A stretch of 64,000 nucleotides of DNA, from the NCBI RefSeq assembly GCF_055900595.2, contig NZ_CM148325.1. One strand, given 5' to 3'. Below are positions 59,901-62,900 of this stretch, piece after piece. Every line of letters starts with the position of its first letter. The first letter of the stretch is position 1. The position numbers are program-made.

Positions 59901-62900
59901 TCGGATTGCGCTAAACCGGCCTCTTCACGTCCCCGTGCCCCAGTCCAGTTGGCATACGCCACCGACGCCCGTTGCATAACATCTAATTTCGCCTGCTCAA
60001 CCTGCGAGGCAGAGATTTTTTGTTGCCCTTCGGCCTGTTGCACCTGGGCTGAAACCGCGCCGCCCTGATACAACGGCGCGTTGACGTTCAGTTGTAACTG
60101 GTCATCCCAGTACGAGCGGTCGCTGGTCTGGTAGCGCGTTTTGCCGCCCTGAATACTGAGCGTCGGCCAGTATTGCGATTTGGTTTTTTCCACACCGTAC
60201 TGAGCAGACTGACGTAAGTTTTCTGCCGCCAGAACCAGCGGTATGGACTGGTAATCAATATTTTTTAGCGACACTGGCTGCTCGGCTAATTCAGCAGGTG
60301 GCGCGGCTATCCTCTCCGGCTGTACACCAGTGAGCACCGCCAGTTGCGCTTTGGCGCTTGCCATTTGCGCCTGGTATTGCTCCAGCGTCGAGCGCATTGC
60401 CGCTATACGCGTCTGTGCCTGTAATTCATCGGATGATGAGTTAAGCCCGGCGTTGGCGCGCAGTGCCGCCATGTTGTAGACATTTTCCAGAGAGTGAATA
60501 TTACGCTGCGCAGCGTCGCACAACGCCTGATATCGGCTCACTTCCATATAGGTCGTCGCCGTTTTTTCGGCTACGTCAGTTAAGGTTGCCATCAGTTTAA
60601 AGCGGTAGCTGTCACGAGCGGCGGTTTGTAGTTTGATATCGTTATCTGTTTTACCGAAGTCATACACCAGCTGCGTCAGGGTTATGCCATAAGAGACGTT
60701 GTTATCCAGCCTGCCGCTGGAGTCCGTTTGCCGGGACGGCCCCGCGTTGCCGGTTAATCCAACGTGTGGATACCAGGCACTTTTGGCTTCATCGATTTGC
60801 GCTTCGCCAATACCTATCTGCGCCGCCTGTTGAGTGACGTCGGGATTTCGCGCAAAGGCGCGTAATATACTTTCCTGTAAAGATAATCGGGCAACTGGCG
60901 TTACCGCTGGGGCGTTCGCCCATTGTGGCAGCGGTGCAGCAATTGTAGCTTCTCCCATCACCATAAAACTTATTAAAAAAATAAGTCCATTATTTTTACG
61001 GTTTTTAAACTGGAATCGCGCCATAGATAAGTCACTTCCTTCCAGGTCATTATTTTAACTGGTTTTTATAACCAGTCTCATTTTATTAAGAAGGGTAATA
61101 ACTTGTGCACCTCTTTTGTCGAACATTGAGATTGGAAAAGAAATGCAGTTAAAAAGCTTATACGTTATTTATTTAGAATACACTACGACTTTTAGATTAC
61201 CATCATACGCATTAAGAATAATCCACAGCAATAAGTGATTAGTATCACAGATTTATCGCGTATATATCATTTTTTTGTGACTTATTTATTAAAGGAATAA
61301 GAAAGGAAATTTGAATTAAAGACAAAGGCGCAGTACAGAAAGTACTGCGCGCAGAGAGGTTTTATACGGCTTTATTGCGCTTCATGACCATTGCCACAAT
61401 AAGGCTGAGTAAGAGTGCGCCAATAATCCATATCAGCGCACGACTGCCCTGGGACCACAGACTGTAGATGAAGCCAACGATCACCAACAACATAACCAAC
61501 GTGCCAACGATAAGAATCGGCAACGAGGCATGGATATCATGACGCAGGCGCATCGCCACCACAAACACCGCCAGGTAGCAGATCAAAAAGGTGGCACTGG
61601 CAACGCTGGCGAGTGAGCCTAAATTTAGCGCCGCCGTCATCAGCATAATCAACACCACGACGATGATGTTGCCCCAGGTACTCTGCCGCCACAGAGATTT
61701 ATTCATTAGCTTCGGCAGTTCGCGTTCGCTTCCCATGTTGTCCATGATGTTAAACACGGCGAACAGGTTCGCGTTGATGGCTGAAGCCGTCGCCAGTAAA
61801 GCACCGATGACAACGATCACATAACCCACATGCCCGAGGAGCGGAGATGCGGCCTGCGCTACGGCGGTATCGGCATATTTTTCTAACTCTAATGCCGATA
61901 CATCGCTAAGCAGTACCAGCGCCAGCGCGATGTAAAGCAGTGTGGTAACGCCAATCGCCACCAGAAACGCCCGTGGCATAATGACCGCCGGATCTTTCAC
62001 TTTATCCGCCGCGTTCGCCATCATGCCAAAGCCCGCATAGGCAAGGAAGGTTATCCCGATACAGGAGAAGAACGCACCGGAGCTGGGAGGCGCAGAGACG
62101 GAAATATGCGCCGGTTGTAGCGACCAGACACCGGCAATAATCAGCAATAACAGGATCATCATTTTAATGCCGACGAGGATCACTTCCAGCCGCCCTACCG
62201 CATGGTTGCTTAAGGAGTTGAAAAGCGTCATCACCGCAATGATCCCCAACGCGTAGAGCAAAATAAGGTGCTCCTCCTGGCTGCCTTCATGCAAAAACTG
62301 CACGGCATAAGCGCCAAAAGCACGGGCGACCATGGCGATACTCACCGCCAGCGTCAACAGGTACAGTAACGAGAGCGCCAGCGAAAAGACGCCGTTGCCT
62401 AATCCGCGACGAAAGAAGTCGATAATACCGCCATTGCTGGGATAGCTCGCCCCCAGACGCGCATAGGCATAACCGGAAAACATCGCCACAATACCGCCAA
62501 AAGCAAAGGCGACCCAGGTCGAGGCTTCCATTAGCAACGCAGCCTGCCCCAGCAGCGCGAAGATCCCCGCCCCCACCATTGCCCCAATGCCGATGGAAAC
62601 GACGTTCCATAGACCGAGAGGTTTGTTACCGTTATTACCTTCCGTGTTCATCATGATCAGCCCTTAAACACGTTATAGCCGAGTTGCTTAGCGACCGATG
62701 CCACCATTTTTTGACCGCGAACACTGTTGCCTTCTTCGTCCAGCGGTGGTGAGAACGCGGCAATTCCCATCACGCCAGGGACGACCGCCAGAATACCGCC
62801 ACCTACACCGCTTTTGCCCGGTAAACCAACGCGATACGCCCAGTCACCGGAGCGACCATACAGCCCTTCCATCATCATTTCGGCCAGAATGTACGGCACG

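What the first reader, a model, noticed from the sequence alone, without database searches (positions are those of the whole stretch)
61025..61361. Strongly AT-rich, roughly 340-bp leader upstream of the T1SS operon (candidate H-NS-silenced promoter)
The region between the ybaT terminator hairpin and the TolC-like gene start is visibly far more AT-rich than flanking coding DNA, with multiple A/T tracts (tatatatcatttttttgtgacttatttattaaagg). Horizontally acquired adhesin operons in enterobacteria are commonly silenced by H-NS binding to such leaders and expressed only under specific conditions.
Basis: inference. Interest (0 to 1): 0.3.

Follow-up and report, generated by a model that had tools for sequence, protein, structure and literature searches.

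The report
Known promoter-leader of adhesin secretion operon
The AT-rich stretch is real, but it is the already-studied promoter and 144-base leader of an E. coli giant-adhesin secretion operon, which switches on in stationary phase; control by the silencing protein H-NS remains an untested guess.

Summary
Window 61025..61361 is exactly the gap between the ybaT stop codon and the TolC-like gene's ATG, both on the minus strand. Its GC is 0.318 against 0.544 for the window.

It is not new. It is 95% identical to the regulatory region of tolC28 (Z0608/ECs0540) of O-island 28 in E. coli O157:H7. Published work there reports:
- PhoB-dependent induction
- direct RstA binding at a box that lies here at 61305..61318
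- 55-fold RpoS dependence
- a Cappable-seq transcription start that maps to window 61168, with -10 TATTCT and a 144-nt 5'UTR

That start is silent in exponential LB and strong in stationary phase.

My additions, all predictions:
- a CRP-like palindrome at -73.5, with half-sites invariant across four Escherichia species
- Pho-box-like repeats at -137..-109
- a fold of the 5'UTR that hides the ribosome-binding site

H-NS silencing could not be tested. The composition is compatible with it (very AT- and TpA-rich). However, predicted curvature is ordinary, the promoter is active in wild type, the operon body is 56-60% GC, and the operon looks ancestral rather than acquired: K-12 carries a deletion scar at this site.

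Verdict: ordinary and already known.

The parts
61025..61361 (-). AT-rich intergenic region (GC 0.318): the regulatory region plus 5'UTR of the T1SS/giant-adhesin operon. It is orthologous to the tolC28 (Z0608/ECs0540) upstream region of O-island 28.
   Evidence: 95.3-95.5% identical to O157:H7; literature
61328..61350 (-). ybaT intrinsic terminator hairpin (9-bp stem, 5-nt loop) followed by a U-rich tail. The K-12 deletion endpoint (about 61333/61334) lies inside it.
   Evidence: -16.6 kcal/mol, z = -5.96; kept in 10 sequences with only G.U-compatible changes; boundary
61305..61318 (-). Ortholog of the published RstA box. Here it reads TAATTCAAATTTCC against TAATTCAAATTACC in O157 (13 of 14). 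It lies at -150..-137 from the mapped TSS.
   Evidence: box at -294..-280 from the ATG; EMSA lost when the box is deleted. Not conserved in the other Escherichia species.
61277..61305 (-). Predicted Pho-box-like direct repeats at 11-bp spacing: CTTTCTT-ATTC-CTTTAAT-AAAT-AAGTCAC. They lie at -137..-109 from the mapped TSS.
   Evidence: the two best scores in the whole 64-kb window (14.4 and 12.1 bits) with a matrix built from Pho boxes recalled from memory. PhoB regulation of ecs0540-0544 is reported in the literature.
61234..61249 (-). Predicted CRP site TGTGAT-ACTA-ATCACT (9 of 10 core positions), centred at -73.5.
   Evidence: 2 matches in the window against 0.36 expected; half-sites invariant in 10 sequences from 4 Escherichia species while the central 4 nt vary; position
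61175..61180 (-). -10 hexamer TATTCT of the main promoter. The -35 region is weak (ATGGTA/ATGATG).
   Evidence: bTSSfinder call in the EDL933 Cappable-seq study and BPROM in the OI-28 study. Invariant in all 10 aligned sequences.
61168..61168 (-). Main transcription start, mapped by homology from EDL933 position 579751. A minor start at 61150 corresponds to EDL933 579769.
   Evidence: positions -45..+12 are identical to EDL933 except for one base
61025..61168 (-). 144-nt 5'UTR.
61089..61104 (-). Invariant block AAGTTATTACCCTTCT, predicted to pair with the ribosome-binding region (anti-SD).
   Evidence: 91-nt fold -21 kcal/mol, z = -3.26. All 14 pairs are invariant, so covariation gives no test.
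61058..61076 (-). Small 5'UTR hairpin ACTGGTT-ATAAA-AACCAGT.
   Evidence: -9.4 kcal/mol, z = -5.85. Most changes are G.U-compatible on the sense strand, with mispairs in a few sequences. An IS1A element sits in its loop in strain ECNB21-M121.
61029..61043 (-). Shine-Dalgarno region GGAAGGAAGTGACTT, the 3' side of the predicted sequestering helix. The ATG is at 61024.
59669..61024 (-). TolC-family outer-membrane gene (451 aa), first gene of the operon.
   Evidence: (PF02321, E = 3e-47)
40583..59560 (-). Giant Ig-like-repeat adhesin (6325 aa, intact here). RefSeq names it 'BapA-related adhesin SiiEA'.
37245..40579 (-). T1SS ABC transporter (38417..40579) and HlyD-family adaptor (37245..38420). 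cueR (36841..37248) overlaps the adaptor's stop codon.

Best explanation
The region is the regulatory region and 5' leader of a chromosomal type I secretion/giant-adhesin operon (TolC-like gene, SiiEA/BapA-like adhesin, ABC transporter, HlyD adaptor). It is the counterpart of O-island 28 in O157:H7.

Reading along the minus strand, it contains:
1. the ybaT terminator
2. far-upstream activator sites: the RstA box and predicted Pho boxes
3. a predicted CRP site at -73.5
4. a promoter with -10 TATTCT and a poor -35, whose start maps to 61168
5. a 144-nt 5'UTR

Shown in the close O157:H7 ortholog: transcription is essentially off in exponential rich medium and turns on in stationary phase; it depends on RpoS, and is raised by RstA (Ca2+) and PhoB (phosphate limitation).

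Inferred here: the same elements operate in this strain; CRP-cAMP adds a carbon-starvation input; the 5'UTR can fold to hide the ribosome-binding site.

The AT-richness is mainly what a dense set of AT-rich regulatory sites, a weak activator-dependent promoter and a long leader look like. It may also attract H-NS, which could keep the promoter off in growing cells, but that step is not shown.
For: Position and gene content.

Orthology: 95.3-95.5% identity to the O157:H7 leader, and positions -45..+12 around the start identical except one base.

Published experiments on that ortholog:
- a 320-bp lacZ fusion is active and RstA-dependent; RstA ChIP-qPCR gives about 6-fold enrichment; the EMSA shift is lost without the box
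- PhoB-regulated promoter upstream of ecs0540
- Z0608 is 55-fold and Z0609 20-fold RpoS-dependent
- ECs0540 and ECs0541 rise by log2 3.5 and 4.1 on entry to stationary phase in glucose minimal medium
- Cappable-seq TSS at 579751, with read scores of 0, 4.1, 0 and 2.4 in exponential conditions and 64.7, 53.0, 31.3 and 9.2 in stationary conditions

Purifying selection: neutral (4-fold-site) identity to E1V33 and E. whittamii is 0.65-0.68, while the leader is 0.82 overall and blocks 61207..61140, 61118..61080 and 61059..61025 are 0.9-1.0.

CRP-like site: half-sites invariant with a variable centre, and 2 matches against 0.36 expected.

Pho-like boxes: the top two scores in the window.

5'UTR fold: z = -3.26.
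Against: - All experiments are from O157:H7, not this strain. Here the RstA box differs by one base (TTACC to TTTCC), and the box is not conserved in other Escherichia species.
- The Pho matrix came from boxes I recalled from memory, and I could not read Yoshida et al. 2010, so their Pho box may lie elsewhere. At -137..-109 the predicted boxes are not in the canonical -35-replacing position for the mapped TSS.
- The CRP site is 1 bp away from the usual -72.5 class I position, and there are no binding data.
- The SD-sequestering helix has no covariation support, because every pair is invariant.
- The operon's RpoS dependence resembles that of upstream ybaST (19- and 70-fold), so some read-through cannot be excluded.
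Confidence: 0.85

Rival explanations
1. One reading: the leader is chiefly an H-NS nucleation site, and H-NS filaments silence the operon. Activators (RstA, PhoB, RpoS-holoenzyme) would work mainly by countering H-NS.
For: - GC is 0.318, and 0.265 in the lowest 200 bp. TpA steps and A/T-only runs are in the top 0.2-0.6% of the window.
- The leader is more AT-rich than the neighbouring qmcA/fetA promoter region (lowest 200-bp GC 0.36), whose transcription unit is listed as H-NS-bound in ChAP-seq of SE11, SE15 and K-12.
- The promoter gives no reads in exponential LB.
- The RstA box lies at -150..-137, too far upstream for ordinary contact activation, which fits an anti-silencing role (inference).
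- Weak opposite-strand starts inside the leader in EDL933 resemble spurious initiation in AT-rich DNA.
- Orthologous operons in Salmonella enterica and Pseudocitrobacter also have AT-rich leaders.
- H-NS silencing of other RTX/T1SS operons is documented.
Against: - I found no H-NS occupancy or hns-mutant data for this locus. The OI-28 paper never mentions H-NS. The EHEC ChIP-chip paper's held supplements do not list the locus. SE11, SE15 and H10407, which have H-NS maps, lack the operon.
- The promoter is clearly active in wild type in stationary phase.
- Predicted intrinsic curvature is ordinary (23% of windows are as curved), and there is no 10-11-bp A-tract phasing.
- The 8-of-10 match to the H-NS motif TCGATAAATT occurs at chance frequency (53 matches against 46 expected).
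- The operon body is 56-60% GC, and the locus looks ancestral rather than foreign.
- The copA-glsA gap (lowest 200-bp GC 0.37) is not listed as H-NS-bound, so composition alone does not decide.
Confidence: 0.35
2. The operon is driven mainly by read-through from the RpoS/GadX-controlled glsA-ybaT transcript, and the leader is a passive spacer.
For: ybaS and ybaT are 19- and 70-fold RpoS-dependent, followed by Z0608 at 55-fold and Z0609 at 20-fold, a smooth gradient along one strand. The terminator's U-tract is interrupted (CUUUGUCUUU).
Against: - The terminator hairpin is strong and conserved (-16.6 kcal/mol).
- A capped 5' end maps inside the leader.
- A 320-bp fusion that lacks ybaT is active and regulated.
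- ECs0540 and ECs0541 appear in the table of more-than-4-fold changes at entry to stationary phase in minimal medium, whereas searches for ybaS/ybaT and ECs0538/ECs0539 found nothing in that paper's text.
Confidence: 0.05
3. The AT-rich stretch is a junction scar of a mobile island: an integration-site remnant or mobile-element end with no regulatory role.
For: About 82% of complete E. coli genomes lack the segment, and homology to them stops at 61334.
Against: - Genomes lacking the operon keep a 98-bp fragment of its last gene, so they carry a deletion rather than an empty site.
- The same synteny occurs in three other Escherichia species.
- No long direct or inverted repeats or IS ends were found.
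- The leader is under purifying selection.
Confidence: 0.03
4. The leader encodes its own product on the opposite (plus) strand: the 40-aa ORF at 61116..61238, or a small RNA.
For: An ORF is present. Weak plus-strand starts map to 61211 and 61302 in EDL933 coordinates. A terminator-like hairpin on the plus strand lies at 61058..61076.
Against: - No Pfam match for the ORF and no Rfam match in the region.
- The ORF spans the least conserved segment of the leader, 61138..61109.
- The substitutions in the hairpin are mostly G.U-compatible only on the minus-strand RNA.
- Of the two opposite-strand starts, the one at 61302 was seen in a single condition and the other is classed as an orphan; neither is flagged as regulated across the exponential-phase conditions.
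Confidence: 0.04

Closest known systems
tolC28 (Z0608/ECs0540) regulatory region of O-island 28, E. coli O157:H7 (PMC12758282; Yoshida et al. 2010, PMID 20640580, cited through PMC3978041; TSS map in PMC10469882)
   Same: Same chromosomal position (ybaT to TolC-like gene) and the same 337-bp length. 95% identity, with identical -10, start site and 5'UTR blocks.
   Different: One base differs in the RstA box (TTTCC against TTACC). The adhesin gene is intact here (6325 aa) but interrupted in O157:H7. The TolC-like gene is a diverged allele (4-fold-site identity 0.72).
asr promoter of E. coli, used as the RstA EMSA positive control in PMC12758282. Its dual PhoB/RstA control is from my own knowledge.
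   Same: An AT-rich promoter reported to respond to both OmpR-family regulators, PhoB and RstA.
   Different: asr is a single small acid-shock gene with sites close to the promoter. Here the RstA box lies about 140 bp upstream of the mapped start.
Salmonella SPI-4 siiABCDEF and bapABCD giant-adhesin T1SS operons (own knowledge; RefSeq names this adhesin 'BapA-related adhesin SiiEA')
   Same: A T1SS with a giant Ig-repeat adhesin, and conditional expression from an AT-rich upstream region.
   Different: SPI-4 is an AT-rich island controlled by the SPI-1 regulators (HilA/SprB) against H-NS. Here the operon body is GC-rich, the TolC-like gene comes first, and the known inputs are RpoS, PhoB and RstA.
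H-NS-silenced RTX operons with dedicated anti-silencers, such as Vibrio rtxA1 with HlyU (reviewed in PMC12846084)
   Same: An AT-rich promoter upstream of T1SS/RTX genes. An activator binding far upstream could act as an anti-silencer.
   Different: H-NS binding and derepression are demonstrated there and are not tested here.

Membership tests
H-NS-silenced (xenogeneic-silencing) promoter | AT-rich tract well below genome GC, rich in TpA steps | tested here: met
   GC 0.318 (lowest 0.4% of windows); TpA frequency 0.107 (top 0.24%); A/T-only runs of 6 or more cover 31%
H-NS-silenced (xenogeneic-silencing) promoter | H-NS occupancy in vivo or in vitro (ChIP, EMSA, footprint) | not testable with these tools
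   No data found. The OI-28 paper has 0 mentions of H-NS. The EHEC ChIP-chip supplements lack the locus. Strains with H-NS maps (SE11, SE15, H10407) lack the operon.
H-NS-silenced (xenogeneic-silencing) promoter | Derepression in an hns mutant | not testable with these tools
   No hns-mutant expression data for Z0608/ECs0540 turned up in the searches.
H-NS-silenced (xenogeneic-silencing) promoter | Silent in wild type under standard laboratory growth | tested here: not met
   From published data on the O157:H7 ortholog: TSS read scores of 31-65 in stationary LB, minimal and acid conditions, and log2 expression of 10.8 in stationary phase. It is off only in exponential phase.
H-NS-silenced (xenogeneic-silencing) promoter | Intrinsic curvature, phased A-tracts, or a high-affinity nucleation motif | tested here: not met
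   Wedge-model curvature is ordinary (23% of windows as curved) and there is no 10-11-bp AA/TT periodicity (parameters recalled from memory). The 8-of-10 motif match is at chance level. These are supportive features rather than strictly defining ones.
H-NS-silenced (xenogeneic-silencing) promoter | Recently acquired, AT-rich foreign DNA | tested here: not met
   Same synteny in E. whittamii, E. ruysiae and Escherichia sp. E1V33. Deletion scar in K-12-type genomes. Operon genes are 51-60% GC.
OI-28 tolC28/ecs0540 regulatory region | Lies between ybaT and the TolC-like first gene of the T1SS-adhesin operon, with high sequence identity | tested here: met
   (337 bp in both; 95.3% ungapped identity to EDL933)
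OI-28 tolC28/ecs0540 regulatory region | Mapped TSS and -10 element conserved | tested here: met
   EDL933 579751 corresponds to window 61168. TATTCT lies at -12..-7. Positions -45..+12 are identical except one base.
OI-28 tolC28/ecs0540 regulatory region | RstA box TAATTCAAATTACC at -294..-280 from the ATG | tested here: inconclusive
   Present at the same position with one mismatch (TAATTCAAATTTCC), a variant shared with UPEC strain 118UI. The effect on binding is unknown.
Pho regulon promoter | Pho box: two 7-bp direct repeats at 11-bp spacing | tested here: inconclusive
   The best two matrix scores in the window lie at 61305..61277. However, the matrix was built from memory, and the boxes lie at -137..-109 from the mapped TSS rather than replacing the -35. 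A candidate -10 (TGaTATATA, 61269..61261) lies 10 bp downstream, but no start has been mapped there.
CRP class I-activated promoter | TGTGA-N6-TCACA site | tested here: met
   TGTGATACTAATCACT at 61249..61234, 9 of 10 core positions. 0.36 matches expected per window. Half-sites invariant with a variable centre in 10 sequences.
CRP class I-activated promoter | Site centred near -61.5, -72.5, -82.5 or -92.5, and cAMP-CRP dependence | tested here: inconclusive
   The centre is at -73.5, 1 bp off. Dependence was not testable. Induction at glucose exhaustion is only circumstantial.
RpoS-dependent promoter | Expression lost in an rpoS mutant; stationary-phase induction | tested here: met
   Published for the ortholog: 55-fold, with stationary-phase TSS scores of 31-65 against 0-4 in exponential phase. 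bTSSfinder also fits sigma-38 to the same boxes. Not measured in this strain.
SD-sequestering 5'UTR (translational riboregulator) | Stable helix that occludes the ribosome-binding site, supported by covariation or probing | tested here: inconclusive
   Fold of -21 kcal/mol with z = -3.26. All 14 pairs are invariant and no compensatory changes occur.

The most novel reading that the evidence does not exclude
The invariant 144-nt leader may be a post-transcriptional switch. Block 61104..61089 would pair with the ribosome-binding region 61043..61029, so that the TolC-like gene (and with it secretion of the adhesin) is translated only when the helix is opened by temperature, CsrA or a small RNA. 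In the same reading, H-NS on the AT-rich DNA would restrict the promoter to RpoS-holoenzyme. Both would act on an operon that is ancestral to Escherichia and was lost by a single deletion in most E. coli.
Probability: 0.2. Interest if true: 0.35.

Novelty: already known. Interest (0 to 1): 0.15.

Why it matters
The operon encodes a giant adhesin and its secretion machine. In O157:H7 these are reported to be needed for early gut adherence, so knowing when the promoter fires helps explain colonisation.

The region has already been studied in O157:H7 (PhoB, RstA/Ca2+, RpoS, mapped start). This window adds an intact copy of the adhesin gene and a one-base variant of the RstA box.

The predictions made here are cheap to test and would complete the regulatory map: a CRP site, distal Pho-like boxes and a fold that hides the ribosome-binding site. 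Whether H-NS acts here is an ordinary open question, not a surprising one.

Tried and rejected
- **Rfam:** scan of 59000..62000 at E <= 1 gave no match.
- **H-NS 10-mer TCGATAAATT, up to 2 mismatches:** 53 hits against 46 expected, so uninformative.
- **Curvature and A-tract phasing:** nothing exceptional.
- **Public H-NS data:**
  - The Fukui 2016 EHEC ChIP-chip supplements do not list the locus.
  - The Higashi 2016 ChAP-seq strains SE11 and SE15, and ETEC H10407, all lack the operon.
  - The EHEC ICA modulon tables place Z0608 and Z0609 in a mixed modulon with no H-NS label in the passages seen.
  - A 2025 preprint on Hha/H-NS silencing in EHEC does not mention the locus.
- **Yoshida et al. 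2010:** not held, so the published Pho box and any PhoB-dependent start could not be compared with my prediction.
- **Proximal promoter TGCACA-18-TAAAAT from the consensus scan:** rejected as the main promoter. Its -10 reads TAAAAC in O157:H7, and the mapped start lies upstream of it.
- **Class II CRP arrangement with -10 TATGAT:** rejected because the spacing is wrong (my reading), and TATGAT sits at about -39..-34 of the mapped promoter.
- **Covariation for the three RNA helices:** none found.
- **The 40-aa plus-strand ORF:** no family match, and it spans the least conserved segment.
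Full report
**1. The observation**

The window is E. coli chromosome. Region 61025..61361 is exactly the gap between the stop codon of ybaT (ORF 61362..62654, minus strand) and the ATG of a TolC-family gene (59669..61024, minus strand).

- GC is 0.318, against a mean of 0.544 (sd 0.062) for 337-bp windows. Only 0.4% of such windows are as low.
- The lowest 200-bp stretch has GC 0.265.
- TpA steps (0.107 against 0.043) and A/T-only runs are in the top 0.2-0.6% of the window.

It is not unique, though. Three other intergenic regions in the window fall below 0.36 GC.

**2. What lies downstream**

On the minus strand the TolC-like gene is followed by:
- an intact 6325-aa Ig-repeat adhesin (40583..59560)
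- a T1SS ABC transporter (38417..40579)
- a HlyD-family adaptor (37245..38420)
- cueR, which overlaps the adaptor's stop codon

RefSeq calls the adhesin 'BapA-related adhesin SiiEA'.

**3. An island, or a deletion in K-12?**

The 309-bp island-side part of the leader is present in 958 of 5426 complete E. coli genomes, always at 95% identity or more. All other genomes match only from window 61334 rightwards.

A K-12-like genome, SE11, SE15 and H10407 all carry a 98-bp remnant of the 3' end of the HlyD-family gene between ybaT and cueR. It is annotated as a truncated pseudogene. BLAST places the deleted segment at window 37345..61333.

The arrangement glsA-ybaT-AT-rich gap-TolC-like gene is also found in Escherichia whittamii, E. 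ruysiae and Escherichia sp. E1V33. The operon genes are 51-60% GC.

The simplest reading is an operon that is old in Escherichia and was lost by deletion in most E. coli. It does not look like recently acquired AT-rich DNA.

**4. The region is already characterised in O157:H7**

The locus is O-island 28. The evidence from the literature:

- **RstA.** Niu et al. 2025 (PMC12758282) cloned the 320 bp upstream of tolC28 (Z0608) into a lacZ reporter. They showed that RstA activates it, and that it responds to Ca2+ through RstA. RstA ChIP-qPCR gave about 6-fold enrichment. The EMSA shift depended on a box TAATTCAAATTACC at -294..-280 from the ATG. BPROM predicted -35 ATGATG and a -10 that includes TATTCT. 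H-NS is not mentioned.
- **PhoB.** Yoshida et al. [quoted passage not shown]
- **RpoS.** Z0608 and Z0609 are 55- and 20-fold RpoS-dependent in EDL933.
- **Growth phase.** ECs0540 and ECs0541 rise by log2 3.5 and 4.1 on entering stationary phase in glucose minimal medium.
- **Start site.** A Cappable-seq map of EDL933 (PMC10469882, supplementary tables) gives a main start at 579751 for this gene.
  - Mean read scores are 0, 4.1, 0 and 2.4 in the four exponential conditions, and 64.7, 53.0, 31.3 and 9.2 in the four stationary ones.
  - A minor start lies at 579769.
  - bTSSfinder assigns -10 TATTCT for sigma-70 or sigma-38.

**5. Transfer to this window**

The EDL933 leader and the window leader are both 337 bp and 95.3% identical without gaps. 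Position 579751 corresponds to window 61168. Positions -45..+12 are identical except for one base.

This gives:
- -10 TATTCT at 61180..61175
- a poor -35
- a 144-nt 5'UTR (61168..61025)
- the RstA box at 61318..61305 (-150..-137)

The RstA box reads TAATTCAAATTTCC here, one mismatch from O157. UPEC strain 118UI shares this variant.

**6. What I add (predictions)**

*Selection on the leader.* Alignments of ten leaders from four Escherichia species show purifying selection. Identity at 4-fold sites of the flanking genes between the window and E1V33 or E. whittamii is 0.65-0.68. The leader is 0.82 overall, and blocks 61207..61140, 61118..61080 and 61059..61025 are 0.9-1.0.

*A CRP-like site.* A palindrome TGTGAT-N4-ATCACT lies at 61249..61234. 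Its half-sites are invariant while its central four bases vary, the pattern expected of a CRP site. The motif TGTGA-N6-TCAC occurs twice in the window against 0.36 expected. It is centred at -73.5, one base from a standard class I position. Induction at glucose exhaustion is consistent with this but is not proof.

*Pho-box-like repeats.* A matrix built from Pho boxes I recalled from memory gives its two best scores in the whole window at 61305..61277. These are three 7-mers at 11-bp spacing, next to the RstA box. That is -137..-109 from the mapped start, so not the canonical -35-replacing position. A possible second promoter (TGaTATATA, 61269..61261) lies 10 bp downstream of the boxes, but no start has been mapped there.

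*A fold that hides the ribosome-binding site.* The last 91 nt of the 5'UTR fold so that the invariant block 61104..61089 pairs with the ribosome-binding region 61043..61029, around a small hairpin at 61076..61058. The fold is -21 kcal/mol with z = -3.26. There is no covariation: all 14 long-range pairs are invariant. The hairpin and the terminator show only one-sided, mostly G.U-compatible changes. The fold is therefore a hypothesis.

**7. H-NS**

For:
- The composition is what H-NS prefers.
- The leader is more AT-rich than the neighbouring qmcA/fetA promoter region (lowest 200-bp GC 0.36), whose transcription unit is listed as H-NS-bound in ChAP-seq of three strains.
- The promoter gives no reads in exponential LB.
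- The RstA box is far upstream.
- Orthologous operons in Salmonella enterica (about 800 bp at 0.27-0.38 GC) and Pseudocitrobacter also have AT-rich leaders.

Against, or neutral:
- I found no H-NS data for the locus.
- Predicted curvature is ordinary and A-tracts are not phased (model parameters recalled from memory).
- The H-NS 10-mer match is at chance level.
- The promoter is active in wild type in stationary phase.
- The operon is GC-rich and apparently ancestral.

I put the chance that H-NS materially represses this promoter at about 0.35. A role in enforcing RpoS selectivity is the most plausible version.

**8. Other rivals**

- **Read-through from ybaT.** This is made unlikely by the strong conserved terminator, the capped 5' end inside the leader, and the active fusion that lacks ybaT.
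- **A junction scar.** This is contradicted by the deletion remnant, the shared synteny and the purifying selection.
- **A plus-strand product.** This has no support beyond a 40-aa ORF that spans the least conserved segment and two weak opposite-strand starts.

**9. Verdict**

The stretch is real and is the documented regulatory region and leader of the OI-28-type adhesin secretion operon. The H-NS reading is reasonable but untested, and its premise of recent horizontal acquisition is not supported. Novelty: already known. Interest is low.

Noticed in passing
window 63104..63106 (glsA/ybaS, minus strand): Glutaminase A has a premature stop at codon 162 (CAA to TAA) compared with a K-12-like genome, which splits the gene into ORFs 63104..63589 and 62657..63034. 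The closest relative found (strain Z0117EC0005) has glsA annotated as intact.
   Followed up: partly
window 37245..37344 and 61334; L002 2901..2998: K-12-type genomes (4FA, SE11, SE15, H10407) keep a 98-bp remnant of the HlyD-family gene upstream of cueR. This marks a deletion of about 24 kb (window 37345..61333) with a few filler bases. The deletion also removes one arm of the ybaT terminator hairpin in those genomes.
   Followed up: yes
window 33004..36835: A second segment absent from K-12 lies between ybbJ and cueR. It holds a REP-like sequence, a 338-aa protein with a YadA-type membrane anchor (33845..34861, plus strand) preceded by a very AT-rich region (33334..33995, GC 0.29), and a 407-aa ORF (35617..36840) with no Pfam match.
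   Followed up: partly
L017 2248..2945 (E. coli ECNB21-M121); equivalent to window ~61065: An IS1A element is inserted in the leader about 41 nt upstream of the TolC-like ATG, in the loop of the small 5'UTR hairpin. The adhesin gene in this strain is annotated as intact.
   Followed up: partly
window 59669..61024 compared with L003: The TolC-like gene is much more diverged from the O157:H7 allele (92.2% nucleotide identity, 4-fold sites 0.72) than the adjacent leader (95.5%) or ybaT (96.9%, 4-fold sites 0.92). This suggests old allelic lineages with a recombination break near the start of the gene.
   Followed up: partly
window 40583..59560: The adhesin ORF is uninterrupted here (6325 aa). It is annotated as a pseudogene (internal stop or frameshift) in O157:H7 strains and in the closest relative Z0117EC0005.
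   Followed up: no
window 36841..37248 (cueR): cueR overlaps the stop codon of the HlyD-family gene (ATGA). In EDL933 the cueR start site lies 160 nt upstream, inside that gene, against a 19-nt 5'UTR in K-12 (supplement of PMC10469882). The deletion therefore changed cueR's upstream context.
   Followed up: no
window 8017..8031 (minus strand): The only other exact TGTGA-N6-TCAC match in the window lies in another AT-rich intergenic region (about 7930..8246, GC about 0.30-0.34).
   Followed up: no
L006 / L015 (Pseudocitrobacter faecalis-type contigs): The orthologous TolC-like/adhesin operon (74-77% protein identity) sits directly downstream of DosC-like (protoglobin-GGDEF) and PAS-GGDEF-EAL genes. 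This hints at c-di-GMP-linked control in that genus.
   Followed up: no
window 61211 and 61302 (plus strand), mapped from EDL933 579708 and 579617: Weak opposite-strand transcription starts inside the leader are reported in EDL933. One is classed as an orphan and one as downstream-antisense to ybaT.
   Followed up: partly
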